Source: Malacoraja senta (taxonomy: Eukaryota). From it: DNA of 64,000 nt. Of this stretch, positions 4,141-25,618 are shown in pieces. The translations under genes and the position numbers were made by a program. Position 1 is the first letter of the stretch. Each line of letters opens with the position of its first letter. Location of the stretch: positions 2,420,001 to 2,484,000 of the forward strand of contig CM075990.1 of the NCBI GenBank assembly GCA_038087875.1, read 5' to 3'. The notes under the pieces are model-generated. The model searched no databases. It saw only the letters and a list, made by a program, of their open reading frames with translations, and had not been told where the DNA came from.

Positions 4141-5688
4141 AGAAACATAGAAACATAGAAAATAGGTGCAGGAGGAGGCCATTCGGTCCTTCGAACAAGC
4201 ACCGCCATTCATTGTGCTCATGGTTGTTCGTCCCCTATCAATAACCCGTGCCTGCCTTCTCCCCATATCCCTTGATTCCACTAGCCCCTAGAGCTCTATC
4301 TAACTCTCTCTTAAATCCATCCAGTGATTTGGCCTCCACTGCCCTCTGTGGCAGGGAATTCCACAAATTCACAACTCTCTGGGTGAAAAGTTTTTTCTCA
4401 CCTCAGTCTTAAATGACCTCCCCTTTATTCTAAGACTGTGGCCCCTGGTTCTGGACTCGCCCAACATTGGGAACATTTTTCCTGCATCTAGCATTACTTG
4501 GTCAATAAACTTACTTACTTACTTTTCAATCTTTCCTCATATGACAGTCCCGCCATCCCAGGGATCAATCTCGTGAACCTACGCTGCACTGCCTCAATCA
4601 CAAGGATGTCCTTCCTCAAATTAGGAGACCAAAACAGTACGCAATACTCCAGATGTGGTCTTACCAGAGCCCTATACAACTGCAGAAGAACCTCTTTACT
4701 CCTATACTGAAATCCTCTTATTATGAAGGCCAACATTCCATTAGCTCTCTTCACTGCCTGCTGTACCTGCACGCCAACTTTCAGAGACTGGTGTACAAAG
4801 ACACCCAGGTCTCGCTTCACCTCCTCCTTACCTAACCTAACCCCATTGGGATAATAATCTGCCCCCTTGTTTTTGCCGCCAAAGTGGATAACCTCACATT
4901 TATCTATATTATACTGCATTTGCCACACATCTGCCCACTCACTCAACCTGTCCAGGTCACCCGGCAACCTACTAACATCCTCTTCACAGTTCACACTGCC
5001 ACCCAGCTTTGTGTCATCTGCAAACTTGCTAGTGTTGCTCCTAATTCCCTCTTCCAAATCATTAATATATATGGTAAACAGTTGCCCCAACACCGAGCCT
5101 TGCGGCACTCCACTCGCCACTGCCTGCCATTCTGAAAAGGACCAGTTCAGTCCTACTCTTTGCTTCCGGTCTGCAACCAATTTTCTATCCATGTCAACAC
5201 CCTAACTCCAATACCATGTGCTCTAATTTTAGTCACCAGTCTCCCGTGCGGGACCTTATCAAAGGCTTTCTGAAAGTCTAGATACACTACATCCACTGGC
5301 ACCCCTTCATCCATTTTACTTGTCACATCCTCAAAAAATTCCAGAAGATTAGTCAAGCATAATTTCCCTTTCATAAATCCATGTTGACTTGGACTAATCA
5401 TTTTACTGCTATCCAAATGCCCCATTATTACCTCTTTAATAATTGACTCCAGCATCTTTCCCACCACCGAAGTCAGGCTAACTGGTCTGTAATTCCCCGT
5501 TTTCTCTCTCGTTCATTTCTTGATAAGTGGGATAACATTAGCTATCCTCCAATCCACAGGAACTGATCCTGAATCTATTGAACATTGGAAAATGATCACC
5601 AATGCGTCCACTATTTCTAGAGCAACCCTGGGATGCAGACCATCCGGCCCAGGGGATTTATCATCCTTCAGTCCCATTAGCTTACCCA
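4141..5688 (-). mobile_element. HER1-like CR1 LINE, 5'-truncated, inserted in ERV integrase
   Basis: ORFs with DFQKAFDKV, GVPQGSVLG and KFADD; (AGAAACAT)n tail. 6-bp TSD ATTCAT (4135-4140, 5689-5694); removal restores VTFLMNEVIPRFGIP. Confidence 0.93.
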
Positions 5689-6051
5689 ATTCATCAGAAA
5701 CGTTACTACAGTCCCTGCACCTAAATCTTTGGAAGGTACTGCCTCCACCCACCTGCTAAATCTATCGATCATTACTAGCATGTACCTTATCCCTCTTACC
5801 GTGTTGATCATATCCACATAGTCGTTCACCAGGTGCCTAAATGGCCCTTCGGGCACAGGAATGTGACCTATAGGCGTTGTTATTCCCTTTCTAACATTGC
5901 TTTGAGCACATACATCACACTGTGACAAAATGTGGTCTACCGAAGCCTGTAAATAGGTTGACCAAAACCCATCCTTTTTTACCTTTCTTATTACTTCCCC
6001 CCCTTGCGCAATGGTGTAACCCATGCCCTTCTGAAATAAGAATGGTCAGCA

Positions 6052-6855
6052 CCACATCCGGTGGCGCTGTAAGCTGGCTGCCTCCGCCTTCAGTCTGGTA
6101 TCTTTTTTTATTTTTTTAATGTTTTAAGTATGTTTTTTTTGTTGTTGTTGTTGTTTTATGTGGGGGAAGAGGGTATGGTAAGGGGGAAACCGTCCTTCAG
6201 TCGCTTCCTGGAGAGGATGCGACTATTATTCGAGTCTCGTCCTCGCCCTCCCCCCCCCCAGGGCCTACCTACTGGATTGGTGCGGCCTTTCCTGCCGGGA
6301 CCAACCAGAGCTCCAGCAGCGGCGGCGCAGCGCTGGATACATCGCAGAGCGGGCGATGCCTCACCTGGGATTGCCGTTTGGAGGCCTGCTGCATTGACAT
6401 CGCGGAGCTGTGGTTCGCGGAGCTCCCAACGCAGGCGGCGCTGACCAACATCGCGGAGTCCTGCGACCCTTTGTCGGGGGTGGCCAGCGTGAATCTCCGC
6501 CCAGCTCGGCCTGTGGATTTAGAGGTCCGGGCCGCTGAGGATGTTCCCCCGTTCGACGTCGGGGTTCCATCATTCCCGGCGAGAGGGACTGAACATCGGG
6601 CCGCCCGTGGCGGTGACTACGGGGTGCTCGGGAGCCCCCGACCACGGGTGAACATCTGGGAAGATCAGCGAGGAGGTGGACTGGACTTTGGTTCCTTCGC
6701 TCACAGTGGGGAACTTTGGTGCCGCTGTGGGGATGTTGTGTCGTGGACTTCTGTGTTTTGTGCTTTTTTACATTTCTATGACTGTAAGGAAAATTGCATT
6801 TTGTTGTCTCTTATGAGACAATGACAATAAATTGAATCCAATCCAAATCCAATCC
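6052..6855 (+). mobile_element. GC-rich non-autonomous retroposon (family shared with 24800-25618), inserted in ERV pol
   Basis: Ends in AATAAA plus (AATCC)n. Shares blocks such as CCATCATTCC..GGCGAGAGGG..ACATCGGGCCGCC with the 24.8-kb copy. Removal restores PTPLLTILISEGHG. Confidence 0.75.
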
Positions 6856-7946
6856 AATGGTGTGGGTGCTACCAACAATCCTTCTTCAGTAGTCCACATG
6901 CCCTCCAAGTTCTGCTTAGCTCCCCTTTGTCTCCCCATTGTTTGCTCTGCTAAGGTTGCCTTACCTTGCATTTCAATTATGTCCTCCTCTGTGGGTTCCA
7001 GATCCAAGCTTACTTGAGATGCAGCGACAGCTAGTCGGCATCCAGATGCTGTTCTGGCTGCTTCGTAATAGTGTTAAAAGCTGTTTCCGCCTCATCATTC
7101 CATTGCAAAACATTTCTCAGGCTTGTGTGTCCTGCTTCCTTCATTATTTTCCTTAATGGCATCACAATTTCAGCACACTCTCCACTCCAGCCTGAACTGT
7201 ATCCTGCCATTCCCAAAAACATCATCTTCTGTCCTACTGTCTGAGGTTTGGGAGCTTTAATTATTGCCTCAATTTGATCCAGTGCTATAGCCTTTACTCC
7301 TATGCATATTAATCATCCTAAATATTCTACCTGCTGCTTACAAAACTGCAGCTTCTTCCTGGATACCTTATGGCCTCCGCACGCCAGTCTTTCCAAGAGA
7401 GAGTCAAAGTGTCTCGCTCACATTGCTCCTCAGTTGCAGAGCAAACCAACAAATCATCCACATATTGTATTAATTCTAAGGGTATGCCTTCCAAATCTGC
7501 CTTTAATATCTGATTGAAGACATGGGACGAGTGTTTGAATCCCTGCAGCATCCTAGTGTAGGTGTATGGAGTACCCCGAGAGGTAAAAGCAAACAAATAC
7601 TGACATTGCTCTGCTAAGGGTACACTGAAAAACGCCGAACAAAGATGTACTACTGAAAAGTAAGCTGCCTCTGTTGGAACATTAGTCAGCAGTGTATGTG
7701 GATTTGGGACGACCGCTGGCCAATCTCTCACCACCTCGTTTACCGTTTACAGATCATGTACTAGTCTCCACTTGGACTTGTCTGCTTTCAAGACCGGTAA
7801 TAATGGGGTGTTGCAGGGACTACTTGTCCCACCTCCAGCAGACCCTGCATAGTTGGTGCTGTACCTTCCTCCGCCTCTAGCTTCAGGGGGTGCTGTGGTC
7901 TCCGGGGCGGAATTGCTCCCTGCTTTAATCCTATTTCCACTGGACT

Positions 7947-8714
7947 CCAAGCACCAAGTTCCTGGGAGTACACATCACAGATGATCAGACATGGTCCACC
8001 AACACCATCTCCCTAGTCAAGAAAGCACAGCAACGCCTCCACTTCCTTCGACGGATGAGGAGAGCCGACCTCCCCCCTTCTGCCCTCACAACTTTTTACA
8101 GGGGTGCCATTGAGAGCATTCTTACCAGCAGTCTCTCAGTCTGGTATGGCAGTTGCTCTGCTGCTGACCAGAAGGCCCTACAGAGAGTGGTGAGGACAGC
8201 GGAGAAGATCACTAGATCACCCCAACCAGCAATCCAGGACTTATACCCATCTCGCTGTCGCAAGAGAGCAACCAATATCATCAAAGACACCACCCACCCA
8301 GCACACAAACTGTTCACCCTCCTACCATCCGGCAAGCGCTACCGCAGCATGCGGAGCAAAACCACAAGATTCAAAAACAGCTTTTTCCCTCAGGCCATCA
8401 GACTTCTCAACACACTAAAGAAAATTCCATGAACATTACACAAAGACCAACTGACTGTCAAATTAACTTTAACCCAATGTCTGCAGTATGCTACTTGCAC
8501 AGTATGCTATATTGCACCTTTTATTAATGAATATTTTATATAATGTATATGTCCATTGTCTATTTTTATTGGTACACTGTCTGTCTGTGTTATAAATATT
8601 ACTTGCACATTGGAGTATGGAGAAACGCAATTTCAATCCTCTGTGTAACTACTTGTTACATTATTTGAATTGACAATAAAATTACTATTAAAAAAATAAA
8701 AAATAAAAAAAATT
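7947..8714 (+). mobile_element. Rex1/Babar-type LINE 3' fragment inserted in ERV pol
   Basis: ORF 8055..8432 (FYRGAIESILT, LPSGKRYRS, SFFPQAIRLLN); AATAAA plus A-rich tail. 3-bp ACT duplication; removal restores KSASPVEI. Confidence 0.85.
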
Positions 8715-9807
8715 ACTAGCGGATTTTACCTTTCCGACATCTGTGTCGTGTTGCGACCACAGAATCGGGGGCAGCCTATCTAACCCTTCCTCCTTTGTCT
8801 GTCCCTCTCTTTTCGTCATCAAAGGAAGATGTTGCCGGGAGGGGGGGTAATTTCGACCTCTTTCAACGTTCCCATCATATCTATATTCACCACTGTCTTG
8901 ATATAATTATTATTTCCTGATTTCTATACCTGTGGTGTAATTTTTTCCCAACTATTAAAATAGTACCTACTTGTTTCACCAGGGGCCCCAAGTCTCTGGA
9001 CTGGTGTAGGTGTATTGAGTACAAGCAATATTACAAGCAATGTCACATGGGGAGCAGCTCCTGGCTCCCTATACCACTTTTCCAAAAATACGTTCCATCT
9101 AATTTGCAAGGCTGCCCCTTGTTTTCCAATCATTATTGCTTCTGCCTTTAGGTGGTGCGGGCCACATGCCTCTACACACCACATTCCCCTATTGTCTGCA
9201 TCGTGATCTTCGGCAAAAATCACTGTACACTGTAATTCAGATTTGGGCTGAGCTGCTTCGGGCAGTATGGCCAGTACGCCCTTCTTCCACATTTCCCACG
9301 TTTCCCAAATTTGATCTTCTGTATGTCCTATCCAAAAGACATTAGCGTTTCTAACTTCCTGCATTATCATTTGTGCACTTGTCCTGTTCACGCTCAAACC
9401 ATTTCTAGTACGTCCCAATTTTAATTGTCTCAACAGAGCATCTCTACCTAACAAATGAATGGGGGTCCCTTTAGACACCAATACCGGCAATACTATTTCT
9501 TTATTACTCATTTCTAAACTTACCGGAACCGCGTTAACTGTGTTTTTCCTGAGAACCCTATAGTTTTAACAAATTTTCCTGACGTGGGAAGGTGGGAGGC
9601 ATAGTGTGGTTGCACACAAGTGTATGTAGCTCCCGTATGTATCATCAGGGGTGTTAACCGCACCCCCCCCCCCCCCCCCCCCGCTCCAAAATTACCTGAA
9701 TCATAGGTTCTTCTTCTGCCTCTCGTGTTATCATTGGGTAATGTCTCTTCCCATCCGGGTTCTCTGGGCACCCCCTAGTATCTAGCACAGGGGTTCACAG
9801 GTCTAGC

Positions 9808-10900
9808 GGGAGAGTCTAGGACCAGAGGTCATAACCTCAGAAATCACGGAGGAACCTTTAGAAAGATGAGGAGGAATTTATTTCGTCAGTGGGTGGTGAA
9901 TCTGTGGAACTCATTGCCACAGAAGGCTGTGGAGGACATCAATGAATATTTTTAAGGTGGAGATTGACAGATTCTTGATTAGTGCGGGTGTGAGATGTTA
10001 TGGGGAGAAGGCAGGAGAATGGGGTTGAGAGGGAAAGATAGACCAATCATGATTGAATGGCGGAGTAGACTTGATGGGCCGAATGGTCTAGTTCTGCATC
10101 CTATCCTTTATGAGCTTATGAGAGCAGGCAGGCTAGTGATATAGATACAGAGAAACAGCGTGGAAACAGGCCCTTCGGCCCGCGCTGCCCAACGTTCACC
10201 CCATACACTAGCACTATCCCACACGCTAGCGACAATTTATAATTTTTTTAACTCAAAGCCAATTAATGTACAAACCAGCACGTCTTTGGAGTGCGGGATG
10301 AAACCGGGGCACCCGGAGAAAACCCACGCAGTCACAGTGAGAACGTGCAAACTCCCTACAGACAGCACTCGAGGTCCGGGTCGAATCTGGGTCTCCAGCT
10401 TCTTGTGTCTATCTTCGGTTTAAACCAGCATCTGCAGTTCCTTCCCACCTAAACTCTTAGATCCCGCTGCTCTACAACACTCCCCAGGGCCCTGCCGTAC
10501 ACTGTGAAGGTCCTGCCCTGGTTTGACTTCCTAAAATTTAACACCTCACACTTCTCCATCATGGTCTGGTTTGGCTCAGCCACCAAGCACGACATCCGGA
10601 GGCTGCAGCGAATCGTCCGATCAGCGGAGAAGGTTATTGGCTGCAACCTTCTCCCCCATTGATGAACTGCACACTGCAAGGGCCAGGAAGCGACGGGTAA
10701 GATCATCTCTGACCCCTCTCACCCTGGCCACAAACCCTTTGCATCACTTCTCTCTGGAAGGCGACTCCGGACTGTCAAACCCGCCACAGCCAGACATAAA
10801 ATCAGGTTTTTACCCACGAGCAGTAGCTCTACTGAATAACCAAAAGTCTGTAGCCTCCTTTTGCTCTGGTATTTAATTTCATTCACATGTTTAAACTATA
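9808..10900 (+). repeat. Duplicated composite block (HER1 tail + SINE + Rex1 fragment), paralogous to 14505-15597
   Basis: Both copies share the same element order and unique junctions (e.g. CTATCCTTTATGAGCTTATGAGAGCAGGCAGGCTAGTGAT). Confidence 0.92.
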
Positions 10901-11044
10901 ACCGCGTTAACTGTGTTTTTCCCGAGAACCCTACAGTTTAAACAAATTTCCCTGACGTGGGAAGGTGGGAGGCATACTGTGGTTGCACACAAGTGTATGT
11001 GGCTCCCGTATCTATCATCAGCATAGGGGTTCACAGGTCCAGCC

Positions 11045-12935
11045 GGGCCTGTCGGGGCTAGCCTGGGTTAAAGTATCGTTCACCTTCCATTGGTCCCTGT
11101 TGGTATAGGCTGGGCCACTGACGGTGTGGGCAGTCCCTCCTCAGGTGCCCTACCTGTTCACATCCCCAGCACGCCTTATCCATTACCTGTCTCCTTACTA
11201 GCCTTCCTCGACCACCTCCTTGAGATCCCTCCCTCCCTTGGGGACCCCAGTCCTGTCTTGGCTTATATCCAGATTTATTTCGTTCCTGATAGGGCATTTG
11301 AGGAAACGCTCCCCCAAAGACATTTATTATCAGCATGGGATTTTCCGGCCCCTGTCTGGCTCCGTCACAGGACTCACTGTATGTCGGTGCGTCACTTATT
11401 TCAGTCGTTCCAACCAGGTCTGTTGTTACTGACAACATAGTCTTTCCTTTTTCACGCTCTTTCTTTTCGAGCTCTTCAAGTTGCATTTGCATCACTTTCC
11501 TCTGCACCTCTTCCTGCTGATCTGCAAGTCTTTTTCTATCTCTGTGATATTTTTTGACCGCATGGACCAAATGATCCCTGAACTGGTGGTGGGATATAGA
11601 TGACAATCCCACCACCTCCTCCAGTCTGGACTTGAATTGAGGAGGCATGGCATCCACAACAGCGGTCCGGAACATAGTGTTCATTAACTGGTTGCCCTCT
11701 ATTTCTTGTTCAGTTTCGAGTCTCCACCTTTTCAGCTGGTTCTCCAGATAGGCTGCTGGATTCTCTGCCTCCCCCAGTGGATCTCCCCTCAATGCCTTGG
11801 GGTCCACCTTAAGAGGGTAACAGTGTCTGAGGGCCTTCCATACCCTCTGCCTGACTGGGTCAAAGGGTGTGCCATTGACCATTGCATTATTCACCACATT
11901 TTTTATACCAGCCTTCTCCAGGAGTTCTGTCAGTTTAGTGGTTCCTATCACTTTCACCAACAGTGCCTTCAAATCTCCCATAGCCAACAACCATCCCGCG
12001 TTCTCCTCCTCAAAGGTCCTAATCCATGTTCCAGCCCTTTTAGCCCTTCCAGGTCCTGGGTCCCCCAAGCGATATACTGTGTCTATACCGTTCTTTTTAA
12101 AAGCAATGGCATAATTTTATTCCTCTGTTCCTGTTCCGCTTCTTCTACCTGTATCCCATTCCAATCCTTCTTGGAGTGCCTTCTTTCTCATTCTAATCTC
12201 TATTTCTTGCTTCTCAGTTATTCTAGCCTTCCTTTGCAATTCCTTCACCTTTCTTTTAAAATCTTACGCTAAACCTCATCCCTTATTTCCCTTGCATCCC
12301 CCCTATCGCTTCCCGATTCTGTTTCCTCCTCACTGCCTTGCCCTTCTGTCAGTGACAACTTGTCCATCAGTTTCCAGTCCTGTCTATCACGCTCCTTGCT
12401 CCCCCCCCCCACCTTCTGCTGAATAGGATGCCTCAAAATCCCTCTTTTCTCAGGTCCTGCAGCCTCCTGACATCCACTTCTAATTCCCTTGTTTCCATCT
12501 CATCATCCCAACTTGCAACCTCTGATTCTATCTCAACTATTCCCTTTACCAAGGGACACTGCTTTGTACCATCCGGGCCTGGATAGGGAGGGGGATGCCC
12601 AGGATCTCTCAAGCTTGGATATAAGATCGACGTTTTCCTTGGAGTTCCTGGCTTTCATCCTGCATATCGGTTCTCTCACCCTCTTCCTTTGTCATATTTA
12701 CCACCTGATATTCTTTCCTCAACCTCTCTCCTTCTGTTCTAAACAACTTAAGTACGTCTAACTCCTTTTCTCCTTTTTTTCGCGTTTCCAACTTATCTTT
12801 GAACCTATAATTCTTAATTAACACTTCCATCCCGTCGCACATATTTATATCGAAAGTGCCTTCCTTGGGCCACTTCATCACAATTTCTCCGTTCTTTTTT
12901 CCCATTTCTCAGAGTGCTTTGTAATGTCCTCTTTT
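11045..12935 (-). pseudogene. gag: gag (MA, CA, NC with CCHC finger), frameshifted; its 3' end with the stop codon survives at ~9775-9807
   Basis: WPKEGTFD matrix motif (ORF 12609..12905); 336-aa CA/NC ORF with CWGCEQVGHLRRDC. Confidence 0.9.
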
Positions 12936-13262
12936 GATACAGAGAACTTTTTACTTAGTAGTTTCACTGCAGTTACCTTATTCATTGTATTATCTTGTTC
13001 GGTGCACTTTATCAATCAGTCCAATCGTAGTTCTTATTCTATTCCGTCCCGTTCCTGTAGTTACTATACTATCCTATACACTGTTTCTAAGAATTTTTAG
13101 CAGGGAACCAGATCAACCTACTACGAAGGACCTCAGTGTTCCTGGGAGCTTCTTCGGGGGGGATCAGTCTCAAAGGGTCTGACTAGTGCACATTTCTCTC
13201 CCCATCTGATCCCGGTGAACCTGCGGCCACTTACTCAGTCGTTGGTTGATGGTCCCAGCGAA

Positions 13263-13280
13263 ATCCCAGCTGGCTTGCCA
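13263..13280 (-). promoter_or_regulatory. Primer-binding site, tRNA-Arg(ACG)-like
   Basis: Minus strand TGGCAAGCCAGCTGGGAT versus the complement of the vertebrate tRNA-Arg(ACG) 3' end, TGGCGAGCCAGCCAGGAG (14/18). Lies 2 nt from an LTR-terminal CA. Confidence 0.7.
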
Positions 13281-13282
13281 TA

Positions 13283-14148
13283 TGATTATGTTTGCACCTT
13301 AAAAAACTGACAAAATACAATGAATTAAAGTAAACCATACAAGCTTTTACTTTTTACGTCAAACGGGAGTGGCCGGAGATGATACAGTCTGGAAGAATTC
13401 AGTGATACTTCTGGTTCCCCAAAATACCACTTTAATTAATAAAAATCCTGGGGTCTTTTATACAAAAATAGTCACATATGCAGAATATCAGGGGCATTAG
13501 GTAGTTTGTTTTTCTATGCCAACTCATGGCTATCCCATTGTCAGTTAGTTCCCCTTTCAGCCTCTCTTATCTGATTGACCTCTTTCAACCAGAAAGCTTG
13601 TCTGAAAAAGCCATAAAATCTGGTCGGGAGGCCCGTCAAAGCATCACGGTGCAGCCCTGTCGTTTTCATAGTTATTTTCCATATACAAAGGCGTCCCTTT
13701 GTAATTTCCAAACCTTCCCTTGACTGACAAGACCGTTCTGTTTACTAGAATCTTTGGTTCTGTGGGGACCAGTATAAAGAATTTGCAAGCTGCCTTGCAG
13801 GCAGTATTGTTAGCTAGGGCAATTCTCTGGGAGACTGCTTTGTCGGGCCATTCATATAGGCATTGCACTTAATTATGGCCAGGTGGAGTGGGAGGATTGA
13901 GGCTTGCAGTGTGGGTATCGTTGTCTTTAAGTTATGAAAGTCTTCTTGTTGAAATGAGAGAGTTAAGTTGAAAAGGATTAATCTGCTAGGAATGGGCGGG
14001 CATAATTCACAGTGGGATGGTCCAATTCCCTGTCAGTCAGGATCCTGGGCGCTGTGATTGGACATTGATCCAGATTGTGATTAGTCAGACTCTCTGTCAT
14101 TCAAAGTCTTGCCACTGATTGCTGGTGCAGAATTCCCAAATAATTAAT
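13283..14148 (-). repeat. ERV 5' LTR (right boundary approximate, overlapped by HER1)
   Basis: Ends in CA next to the PBS. Minus-strand TATAAAAG near 13455-13462 and AGTAAA poly(A)-signal variants near 13346-13357. Confidence 0.7.
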
Positions 14149-14149
14149 T

Positions 14150-14820
14150 TGCAAGTGGAATCGGTAGTAAGAAAGGCAAATACATTTATTTCGAGAGGAC
14201 TAGAAAACAAAAAACAGGGATGTAATGCTGAGACTTTGTAAGGTGCTGATCAGACTGCGTTTGGAGTATTGTGAGCAGTTTTGGGCCCCATATCTGAGGA
14301 AGGATGTGCAGGCTCTGGGAAGGATCCAGAGGAGGTTTATGAGAATGATCCCAGGAATGAGTAGGTTAACAAATGATGAGCCTTTGACGGCACTGGGCCT
14401 GAACTCGCTGGAGTTTAGAAGGATGAGGGGAAGACCTATTTGAAACTTACCGAATAGTGAAATGCCTGGATAGAGTGGATGTGGAGAGGATGTTTCCACT
14501 AGTGGGGGAGTCTAAGACCAGAGGTCATAACCTCACAAATCAAGGAGGAACCTTTAGAAAGATGAGGAGGAATTTATTTCGTCAGTGGGTGGTGAATCTG
14601 TGGAACACATTGCCACAGAAGGCTGTGGAGGCCATCAATGAATATTTTTAAGGCGGAGATTGACAGATTTTTGATTAGTGCGGGTGTCAGATGTTATGGG
14701 GAGAAGGCAGAAGAATGGGGTTGAGAAGGAAAGATAGATCAGTCATGATTGAATGGCGGAGTAGACTTTTTGGGCCGAATAATCTAGTTCTGCATCCTAT
14801 CCTTTATGAGCTTATGAGAG
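14150..14820 (+). mobile_element. HER1-like CR1 LINE 3' fragment
   Basis: LEYCEQFWAPYLRKD and KTRGH motifs; 3'UTR. Confidence 0.88.
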
Positions 14821-16315
14821 CAGGCAGGCTAGTGATATAGATACAGAGAAACAGCGTGGAAACAGGCCTTTCGGCCCGCGCTGCCCAACGTTCACCCCGT
14901 ACACTAGCACTATCCTACACGCTAGCGACAATTTATAATTTTTTTAACTCAAAGCCAATTAATGTACAAACCTGCACGTCTTTGGAGTGCGGGGGGGGAC
15001 CGGGGCACCTGGAGAAAACCCACGCAGTCACAGTGAGAACTTGCAAACCCCATACAGACAGCACTCGAGGTCAGGATCGAACCTGGGCCTCCAGCTTCTT
15101 GTGTCTATCTTTGGTTTAAACCAGCATCTGCAGTTCCTTCCCACCTAAACTCTTAGATCCCTCTGCTCTACAACACTCCCCAGGGCCCTGCCGTACACTC
15201 TGAAGGTCCTGCCCTGCTTTGACTTCCTAAAATGCAACACCTCACACTTCTCCGTCGTGGTCTGGTTTGGCTCAGCCACCAAGCATGACATCCGGAGGCT
15301 GCAGCGAATCGTCCGATCAGCTGAGATGGTTAATGGCTGCAACCTTCTCCCCCATTGACGAACTGCACACTGCAAGAGCCAGGAAGTGAGCGGGTAAGAT
15401 CATCTCTGACCCCTCTCACCTTGGCCACAAACCTTTTGAATCACTTCTCTCTGGAAGGCGACTCCGGACTGTCAAATCCGCCACAGCCAGACATAAAAAC
15501 AGCTTTTTTCCACGAGCAGTCGCTCTACTGAACAACCAAAAGTCTGTAGCCTCCTTTTGCTCTGGTATTTGATTTCATTCACATGTTTAAACTATAATGT
15601 TTTATTCTTAATGTGTAATGTTTTATGTCATTCTTAACTCACTCTATGTCGTGTTGTTACTTGCGAGCGGAGCACCAAGGCAAATTCCTTGTATGTGTAC
15701 ATACTTGGCCAATAAACGTATTCATTCATTCATTCATTCATCTGCATTAAACTCCATTCACCATTCCTCAGCCCACCAGCCCGACTGATCAAGATCCGGC
15801 TGTAATTTTTGATAACCATCTTTGCCATCTACAACACCACCAACTTCAGTGGCGTCTACAAGTTTATAACATGCCATCTGCATTCTCATCCAAGCCATTG
15901 ACGCCAACCACAACCGGCAATGGATTCAGCATCGATCCCTGAGGCACCCGACTCGTCACACATTTTCAGTGTCCTATAAATAAGTCCCGCGCCACGGAGA
16001 GTGAGGAGGGCTGTCGAGAGGTGGAGGGGGCGCTGAGAACATAGGGATGGGGCGAGTGCGATGGTGGGGGCCTGGCAGGGGGCCGCGTGTTGCCATGTGT
16101 AGCGGTATACCTGGTTCGCCGCTGCGAGATGAAATGAAGATTGTTCGATTAACTTTTTGTAACTTTATCGGCACCAGAAACTTGGCAACTCTTTATCTTC
16201 TGCCTGAGTGAGGTCTGCTTAATTTAGTTTTGTTTAGTTTAATTTAGCGAAACAACGCGGAAACAGGCCCTTCAGCCCACCGAGCCCGCACCGACCAGCG
16301 ATCCCTGCACATTAA

Positions 16316-24799: not shown

Positions 24800-25618
24800 G
24801 TGGTGGCGCCATAGAGTGTGGCAGCTGTTAATTTTTCACACCTTTTTAACATTTTTAGTTTGTTAAAAGTTTTGTTCTGGAGGCTTTTTAGTCTTTTTTA
24901 TGTGTGGGGGAAGGGGGAAACCATTTTTTCCAGTCGCTACCTGGTCGAGGATGCGTCCTTTCTCCGAGCCGCATCTTCGCCACCTCCACCTGTATTTGGA
25001 TTGGCGCGGCCTTTCCTGCCGGAGACCGCCCAGAGCTTCGAGCTGCAGCTTCAGCGGCGGCGCAGCACTGAGGTACCATCGCGGAGCGGGCGATGCCTTA
25101 CCCGGGTCGCCGTGTTGGAGCTCCGGAGTGCTGGGACCGCCGACTTCAACAACGTGGAGCTGTGGGGTCTGCGGAGCGTCCAGCCGTGGCGGCGCTGACT
25201 TTAAACACCGCGGAGCCTGGGATCTTTTGCCGAGATCGCCAGTGTTGGAGCTCCGACCAGTGCGGCCTGTGGACTTCGGAAGCCGCGGTCTCCAGTAGCA
25301 AGCGGCCATTTCGGAACTCCAAGAGTGTTCTTCCGACGCCGGAGTTCCATCATTCCGGCGAGAGGGCCTGAAACATCGGGCCGCCGCAGCGGCGACTGCG
25401 GAGGCCTCAATAGGCCCCGACCACGGGTGAACATAGAGGAAGTGGACTGGACTTTGCTGCCTTCCCTCACAGTGGGAACCATTGCGGGGGGATGTTTTTA
25501 TGTTTAATGTTAAATTCTTTAATGTTGTGTTTATTTTATTGGTTTTGCTGCAATGGCAACTCAAATTTCACTGCACCAATTGGTGTATGTCACAATAAAT
25601 GTCCTTTGCCCTTTGTCC
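24800..25618 (+). mobile_element. GC-rich non-autonomous retroposon, second copy
   Basis: Collinear with 6052-6855; ends in CAATAAA plus a short tandem tail. Confidence 0.72.

What the first reader, a model, noticed from the sequence alone, without database searches (positions are those of the whole stretch)
8950..9340. CNPase-like 2H-phosphoesterase domain between protease and RT in the ERV pol
Seen: after the protease-ending LLGRD, ORF 8924..9511 runs ~170 more residues before the RT entry motif (LWSQHDTDVG). This segment holds two in-frame HxT-type motifs 61 codons apart: ELQCTVIF (9224-9232; Q=CAG, one base from His) and APHVTLLV (9041-9049), with IGKQGAALQI between them. Established: paired HxT motifs define 2H phosphoesterases (CNPase has LHCT...AH[I/V]TL). 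Viral 2H enzymes such as coronavirus NS2 and the rotavirus VP3 C-terminal domain destroy 2-5A to block OAS/RNase L, and 2H domains have been noted in some fish retroviral polyproteins. Inference: this elasmobranch retrovirus carried an extra enzyme in Pol, possibly an antagonist of nucleotide-based innate immunity. This copy is probably dead.
Basis: partly seen in the sequence, partly recalled or inferred. Interest (0 to 1): 0.72.

Follow-up and report, generated by a model that had tools for sequence, protein, structure and literature searches.

The report
CNPase-like enzyme in fish retroviral Pol
A broken endogenous retrovirus, likely from a ray or shark, carries between its protease and reverse transcriptase a conserved domain predicted to fold like the enzyme CNPase; such domains are already reported in fish retroviruses, and intact ones likely open cyclic-phosphate RNA ends rather than destroy the immune messenger 2-5A.

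Summary
Real, but a known kind. The minus-strand ORF holds QCT (9224-9232) and HVT (9041-9049), 61 codons apart. Among 46 natural homologues, His stands at motif 1 in 40 of 43 and at motif 2 in 39 of 39, between protease and RT. A model of the nearest stingray homologue (pLDDT 93.8) matches mouse CNPase at Z 16.1, far above the 2-5A cleavers ns2 (8.1), VP3 (7.4) and AKAP18 (7.3); its closest viral matches include walleye retroviruses. Two reviews already cite 2H/CNPase domains in fish retroviruses (PMC9503650, PMC4977317), and this scan found the same thing three times on other DNA. A predicted CNPase-type alpha7 helix, which in CNPase blocks the side that 2'-5' substrates use, argues against 2-5A cleavage. 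A Gln conserved at the protease junction (14 of 17) suggests release by the viral protease. This copy is dead: Gln at the first catalytic position, frame breaks after motif 2, a stop, insertions. I found no activity test in ten literature searches.

The parts
9032..9358 (-). 2H phosphoesterase domain, in-frame part (N-terminal strand to the end of the motif 2 strand)
   Evidence: Homology; model pLDDT mostly 70-90 over residues 11-110; top fold matches are 2H enzymes, CNPase first
8837..9031 (-). 2H domain, C-terminal part, disrupted in this copy (frame breaks after motif 2, in-frame stop at 8924-8926)
   Evidence: tblastn with stingray homologues finds the post-motif helix in another frame at 8944-9006; stop position; model pLDDT under 50 at residues 113-136
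9215..9232 (-). Motif 1 (QCTVIF): Gln at the catalytic position, aromatic residue at +5
   Evidence: His in 40 of 43 homologues, Tyr/Phe at +5 in 45 of 46
9038..9049 (-). Motif 2 (HVTL), intact
   Evidence: His in 39 of 39 homologues
9101..9130 (-). Conserved G-x-x-G-A strand between the motifs
   Evidence: G147, G150 and A152 are among the most conserved columns
9371..9373 (-). Conserved Gln in the protease/2H linker, a candidate P2 residue of a protease cleavage site (inferred)
   Evidence: Gln in 14 of 17 homologues at this column; WDSV Gag and Pol sites have Gln at P2 (PMC3185560)
9400..9734 (-). Retroviral aspartyl protease, in three frames (broken)
   Evidence: tblastn with P0002, whose residues 8-103 are Pfam RVP
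8715..8831 (-). Linker and RT entry (LWSQHDTDVG at 8733-8762), followed by an insertion of about 770 bp
7067..7946 (-). Reverse transcriptase, in several frames with stops
   Evidence: Pfam RVT_1 E 2.5e-12; tblastn; stops at 7749 and 7315
11058..12116 (-). gag ORF with one CCHC zinc knuckle
   Evidence: Pfam zf-CCHC E 0.0012, just under the cut-off
5677..6045 (-). Integrase fragment
   Evidence: Pfam rve E 0.0017, under the cut-off

Best explanation
The segment is a dead copy of a two-histidine phosphoesterase domain that sits between protease and RT in a family of fish retroviruses, is predicted to fold like CNPase, and in intact viruses likely hydrolyses 2',3'-cyclic phosphate RNA ends to 2'-phosphate and free 3'-OH. 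Shown: position in Pol, conserved catalytic motifs, co-divergence with RT, the breaks in this copy. Predicted: CNPase fold with an alpha7-like helix and the two substrate-binding aromatics. Inferred: it is packaged as part of Gag-Pro-Pol, cut from the protease at a P2-Gln site, and works beside RT, healing nuclease-cut ends of primer tRNA or viral RNA so that they can be extended or escape decay. Confidence that it is a 2H domain is about 0.97, in CNPase-type chemistry about 0.7; the figure below is for the whole mechanism.
For: His 40/43 and 39/39, both in 34 of 36. Stingray homologue model pLDDT 93.8, pTM 0.87; Foldseek: every one of the 41 rows listed among the 50 matches at E<=0.001 is a CNPase or goldfish RICH structure, best E 7.2e-7; VIA Z 16.1, rmsd 3.1, 163 of 168 residues, next row 9.6. 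ESM features point to tRNA-ligase CPDase clusters (score 0.90, a lead only). Helix 115-126 starts 11 residues after His104; in CNPase the beta5-alpha7 loop is residues 319-321 after His309, unique to CNPases (PMC4643303, passages). Tyr/Phe at His1+5 in 45 of 46, the place of CNPase Phe235, and Tyr/Phe on the first strand in 35 of 36, likely the place of Tyr168. [quoted passage not shown] 2H and RT identities co-vary in 9 proteins (rho 0.70, Mantel p 0.0008). Gln-hydrophobic in the protease/2H linker in 14 of 17 against a background of 0.28.
Against: No activity has been measured and a shared fold shows no function. No sequence-level link to CNPase: Pfam gave no CNPase hit for any protein scanned and PDB sequence searches gave none; structural identity is only 11-16%. 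The alpha7 and Tyr168 equivalences come from spacing and aligned ranges; I did not see a residue-level superposition. CNPase Arg307 (His2-2) is not kept: the column is mostly Val/Ala/Leu. The window's own model is weak (pLDDT 72; Foldseek best E 6e-3; VIA Z 7.9, tied with other 2H enzymes). The 2H/RT linker shows a Gln site in only 8 of 16 (background 0.35), so release from RT is not shown. Most retroviruses replicate without such a domain (own knowledge), so a need for primer healing is not evident. The domain diverges faster (median identity 0.33) than protease (0.55) or RT (0.62), which would also fit a host conflict.
Confidence: 0.5

Rival explanations
1. Same CNPase-type chemistry, but used to dampen immunity: it removes 2',3'-cyclic phosphate RNA ends or 2',3'-cyclic nucleotides that act as danger signals.
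For: PMC8406329 (passages) states that cyclic-phosphate-ended RNAs stimulate RIG-I/MDA5, NLRP3 and TLR8. Faster divergence than protease or RT. All fold evidence fits equally.
Against: A domain made at Pol levels and packaged with RT is placed better for a replication step than for clearing a cell-wide signal (inference). Those sensing data are from mammals.
Confidence: 0.2
2. One reading: the domain cleaves 2-5A (or cGAMP) and blocks OAS/RNase L (or cGAS/STING).
For: Viral 2H enzymes do this (PMC8406329); ns2, VP3, Acb1 and a poxvirus cGAMP PDE are all structural matches at Z 6.3-8.1. Elephant shark has an OAS (PMC6307210, passage). One homologue has weak LigT-family Pfam hits (E 0.013 and 0.023, under cut-off).
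Against: CNPase scores Z 16.1 against 8.1 or less for these enzymes. In CNPase the side used by 2'-5' substrates is blocked by alpha7 (PMC5283653, passage), and the model has a helix there by spacing. The named hosts are one ray and nine teleost genera; that teleosts lack OAS is my recollection, which searches did not confirm.
Confidence: 0.15
3. The domain is a non-catalytic spacer or RNA-binding module of Pol.
For: Low overall identity among members; Arg307 equivalent absent.
Against: Both His and both Thr/Ser positions are kept across sequences only 26-67% identical.
Confidence: 0.1
4. The motifs are chance matches in decayed DNA.
For: No Pfam or PDB sequence hit for the window ORF.
Against: 32 homologues at E<=0.001, His at motif 1 although the seed has Gln, confident 2H fold.
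Confidence: 0.01

Closest known systems
2H domains of fish retroviruses, including walleye dermal sarcoma virus (Mazumder et al. 2002, not held; seen only as cited in PMC9503650)
   Same: Same fold in the same virus group: the three best BFVD matches (TM 0.78-0.87 over the query, E 5e-12 to 2e-9) are Q2VF30 (unnamed in the output; recalled as a salmon retrovirus, unchecked), WEHV1 Q9WHI8 and WDSV A4GTG3.
   Different: Only 12-20% identical to those; host here likely a cartilaginous fish; this copy is dead. BFVD labels the two walleye entries 'Envelope polyprotein'; I read them as Pro-Pol from their length (1317 and 1159 aa), which is an inference.
CNPase-encoding epsilon-like ERVs of ray-finned fish (Basta et al. 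2009, not held; seen only as cited in PMC4977317)
   Same: CNPase-like coding sequence inside epsilon-like fish ERVs; my homologues come from nine teleost genera.
   Different: The review calls it an occasional additional ORF; here it is an in-frame part of Pol between protease and RT that co-diverges with RT. I could not read the original to see whether it says the same.
Vertebrate CNPase catalytic domain (PDB 2xmi; goldfish RICH 2i3e)
   Same: Best fold match (Z 16.1); two HxT motifs; aromatic at His1+5; predicted alpha7-like helix.
   Different: About 12% identity; about 45 residues shorter, motifs 61 apart against 79 (His230/His309); no N-terminal PNK-like domain; no Arg307 equivalent.
2',5'-phosphoesterases: MHV ns2, rotavirus VP3-CTD, AKAP7/AKAP18
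   Same: 2H fold and motifs; viral occurrence.
   Different: Z 6.5-8.1 only; they belong to the eukaryotic-viral LigT group and, by PMC5283653 and PMC4643303, alpha7 is unique to CNPases.

Membership tests
2H phosphoesterase superfamily | Two H-hydrophobic-S/T-hydrophobic motifs (family level) | tested here: met
   His 40/43 and 39/39; Thr/Ser at +2 in 41/43 and 36/39
2H phosphoesterase superfamily | Both catalytic His present in this genomic copy | tested here: not met
   Motif 1 has Gln. In mouse CNPase H230Q lowers kcat from 940 to 24 per s (PMC4643303 Table 1)
2H phosphoesterase superfamily | Two-lobed 2H fold | tested here: met
   Predicted models only: the first 21 VIA rows for both models are 2H enzymes or, by title, proteins of unstated family; Foldseek
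CNPase-type 2H enzymes | Helix alpha7 after the second motif strand | tested here: met
   Predicted helix 115-126 after His104 with invariant Gly (37/37); 163 of 168 residues align to 2xmi. Equivalence inferred from spacing; this part is out of frame in the window's copy
CNPase-type 2H enzymes | Substrate-binding aromatics Phe235 and Tyr168 | tested here: met
   Tyr/Phe at His1+5 in 45/46; Tyr/Phe on first strand in 35/36; the Tyr168 match is inferred from range ends
CNPase-type 2H enzymes | Arg307 two residues before the second His | tested here: not met
   Column mostly Val, Ala, Leu, Met, Ile (35 of 40)
Vertebrate CNPase gene family | N-terminal PNK-like (P-loop) domain | tested here: not met
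   A retroviral protease stands there instead
CNPase-type 2H enzymes | Hydrolysis of 2',3'-cyclic phosphate to 2'-phosphate | not testable with these tools
   Needs an assay
2',5'-phosphoesterases (ns2, VP3, AKAP7) | Closest affinity to the eukaryotic-viral LigT group, active site open on the 2'-5' side | tested here: not met
   Z 6.5-8.1 against 16.1 for CNPase; alpha7-like helix predicted
2',5'-phosphoesterases (ns2, VP3, AKAP7) | Cleavage of 2-5A | not testable with these tools
   Needs an assay
Fish retroviruses with a 2H domain in Pol | Order protease - 2H - RT in one polyprotein, fold match to WDSV/WEHV | tested here: met
   Domain envelopes lie between RVP and RVT_1 in P0008, P0009, P0036, P0038, P0039, P0040, P0042, P0043, P0045, P0047; BFVD; same order in the window
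Epsilon-like ERVs | Placement in an RT tree with reference epsilonretroviruses | not tested
   No reference RT sequences were fetched; the label rests and the single zinc knuckle

The most novel reading that the evidence does not exclude
A whole lineage of fish retroviruses, from rays to teleosts, packages its own RNA-end-healing enzyme, cut from the protease at a P2-Gln site, that turns nuclease-cut tRNA or viral RNA ends into 3'-OH ends that RT can extend: a retroviral counter to antiviral RNases built into Pol, and the closest known relative of the catalytic domain of CNPase, whose own physiological substrate is unknown.
Probability: 0.2. Interest if true: 0.65.

Novelty: new member of a known kind. 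Interest (0 to 1): 0.27.

Why it matters
The locus itself is a decayed copy of a domain noted in fish retroviruses since 2002. What would matter is the activity, for which my searches found no test: an extra conserved enzyme in Pol is rare, and this one is far closer to CNPase than to any other solved 2H enzyme, so its substrate could also inform the open question of what CNPase does in vivo.

Tried and rejected
Pfam on the window ORF: 0 families; on 45 further proteins no CNPase family. PDB sequence searches with the ORF and two alignments: only chance hits, proteases or RT. No own genome is held, so paralogues in this genome could not be counted; tblastn found no second 2H copy in the window. 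The two primary papers (PMC137960, PMC2748043) are not held; their text and supplements may already state position, range or a proposed function. Searches for an activity test or fuller description found only the two reviews. Searches for OAS/RNase L in teleosts and sharks (passages) did not confirm absence in teleosts. A Gln cleavage site between 2H and RT was looked for and is not above background in a convincing way (8 of 16 against 0.35). P0037 was left out of the motif counts because the domain was not located in it (1 of 47). No complex prediction, read mapping or tree with reference viruses was run.

Full report
Observation. The ORF lies on the minus strand, 9565 to 8924. The ORF does not reach RT: it leaves the homologous frame just after motif 2, stops at 8924-8926, and the RT entry motif is in another frame at 8733-8762. 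Such a motif pair arose in 45 of 20,000 shuffles.

Context. tblastn with homologues and Pfam place gag (11058-12116), protease (9400-9734), this segment, RT (7067-8831, interrupted) and integrase fragments in order on the minus strand, all broken by frame changes, stops and insertions. No own genome is held.

Relatives. The nearest named proteins are two from the stingray Hypanus sabinus, 53-59% identical, with LHCA/PHVT and LHCT/PHVP at the motifs. A full HMMER scan with the inter-domain segment gave 32 hits and a profile search of longer proteins 11 more; named hosts are nine teleost genera. Of 47 fetched proteins the domain was located in 46. His stands at motif 1 in 40 of 43 that cover it, at motif 2 in 39 of 39, at both in 34 of 36. 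Motif 2 is favoured by the seed; motif 1 is not, as the seed has Gln there. The rows are not independent (two pairs share a cluster). In ten proteins that hold both Pfam RVP and RVT_1 the domain lies between them. In nine long proteins 2H and RT identities co-vary (rho 0.70, Mantel p 0.0008), with median identities 0.33 (2H), 0.55 (protease), 0.62 (RT): the domain is an old, inherited part of Pol, not a recent capture.

Fold. Sequence methods do not see the family: no CNPase hit in Pfam or among PDB sequences; one homologue has sub-threshold LigT hits. The AlphaFold model of the natural stingray domain is confident (pLDDT 93.8). All 41 Foldseek rows listed are CNPase or goldfish RICH (best E 7.2e-7). 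VIA gives mouse CNPase Z 16.1 (rmsd 3.1, 163 aligned), then 9.6, 9.0, 8.5, MHV ns2 8.1, Acb1 7.7, VP3 7.4, AKAP18 7.3, poxvirus cGAMP PDE 6.3. In BFVD the three best matches are large proteins, two of them from WEHV1 and WDSV (TM 0.78-0.87). The window's own ORF folds only to residue 112 and matches CNPase first but weakly (Foldseek E 6e-3; Z 7.9, tied with other 2H enzymes). ESM features agree as a lead.

Mechanism. Published passages say that helix alpha7 is unique to CNPases and blocks the side that 2'-5' substrates use (PMC5283653; PMC4643303). The model has a helix starting 11 residues after the second His, with an invariant Gly (37 of 37), and the family keeps an aromatic at His1+5 (45 of 46; CNPase Phe235) and on the first strand (35 of 36; likely Tyr168). 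The Arg307 position is not kept. These equivalences rest on spacing, not on a residue-level superposition. I therefore commit to CNPase-type chemistry, 2',3'-cyclic phosphate to 2'-phosphate plus 3'-OH (about 0.7), and to RNA end healing beside RT as its likeliest use (0.5); CNPase can stand in for the yeast tRNA-ligase CPDase (PMC5434554). A Gln in the protease/2H linker (14 of 17 by column; 14 of 17 without alignment against 0.28 background) fits the P2-Gln rule of WDSV protease; the 2H/RT side is unclear (8 of 16 against 0.35). Rivals: the same chemistry used against immune sensing (0.2), 2-5A or cGAMP cleavage (0.15; elephant shark has OAS; teleost loss of OAS is recalled and was not confirmed), non-catalytic (0.1). 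This copy cannot be expected to work: Gln at the first His (H230Q lowers CNPase kcat from 940 to 24 per s), the post-motif helix out of frame, a stop.

What is known. PMC9503650 (passages) lists 2H domains in fish retroviruses and WDSV, citing Mazumder 2002; PMC4977317 (passages) reports CNPase coding in epsilon-like ERVs of ray-finned fish, citing Basta 2009. Neither original is held, so they and their supplements may already contain more. Other papers seen: PMC8406329, PMC6307210, PMC5283653, PMC5434554, PMC4643303, PMC11281423, PMC9965902 as passages; PMC3185560 as passages and section 12. Ten searches showed no test of the retroviral domain's activity, within a library that lacks most subscription journals. 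Three earlier notes of this scan describe the same domain in other cartilaginous-fish DNA; they are not independent evidence.

Verdict. Observation confirmed, interpretation partly supported. New member of a known kind; interest 0.27. The open and testable part is the enzyme's substrate.

Noticed in passing
window 9803-10901 and 14499-15597: A 1.1-kb stretch from upstream of the provirus is repeated (94% identical) inside the protease gene, next to a 122-bp duplication of the protease N-terminal part (9527-9648 and 10900-11021, 94%); looks like a local rearrangement after integration.
   Followed up: partly
window 7947-8714: An insertion of about 770 bp splits the start of RT; it holds a + strand ORF at 7929-8432 that looks like the end of a LINE (by eye, not searched).
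   Followed up: no
window about 13250-13480, minus strand: A TATA-like box, then a CA followed closely by a TGG-initial stretch upstream of gag: likely the end of the 5' LTR and the primer-binding site (by eye). No matching 3' LTR was seen in the self-comparison.
   Followed up: no
window 6120-6824: A GC-rich insertion between RT and integrase fragments, 69% like 24908-25484; probably another repeat element.
   Followed up: no
P0003 (Hypanus sabinus): Named 'E3 ubiquitin-protein ligase Siah1 isoform X1' by its source, but its sequence is retroviral protease, 2H domain and RT start: a likely annotation artefact.
   Followed up: partly
BFVD Q9WHI8 and A4GTG3: Labelled 'Envelope polyprotein' though they carry the 2H domain and have Pro-Pol lengths: labels likely wrong.
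   Followed up: no
P0046 (Prochilodus magdalenae, 856 aa): Holds the 2H domain at 529-717 with both motifs but no Pfam protease or RT hit; could be a gene-model fusion or a domain in a new setting.
   Followed up: no
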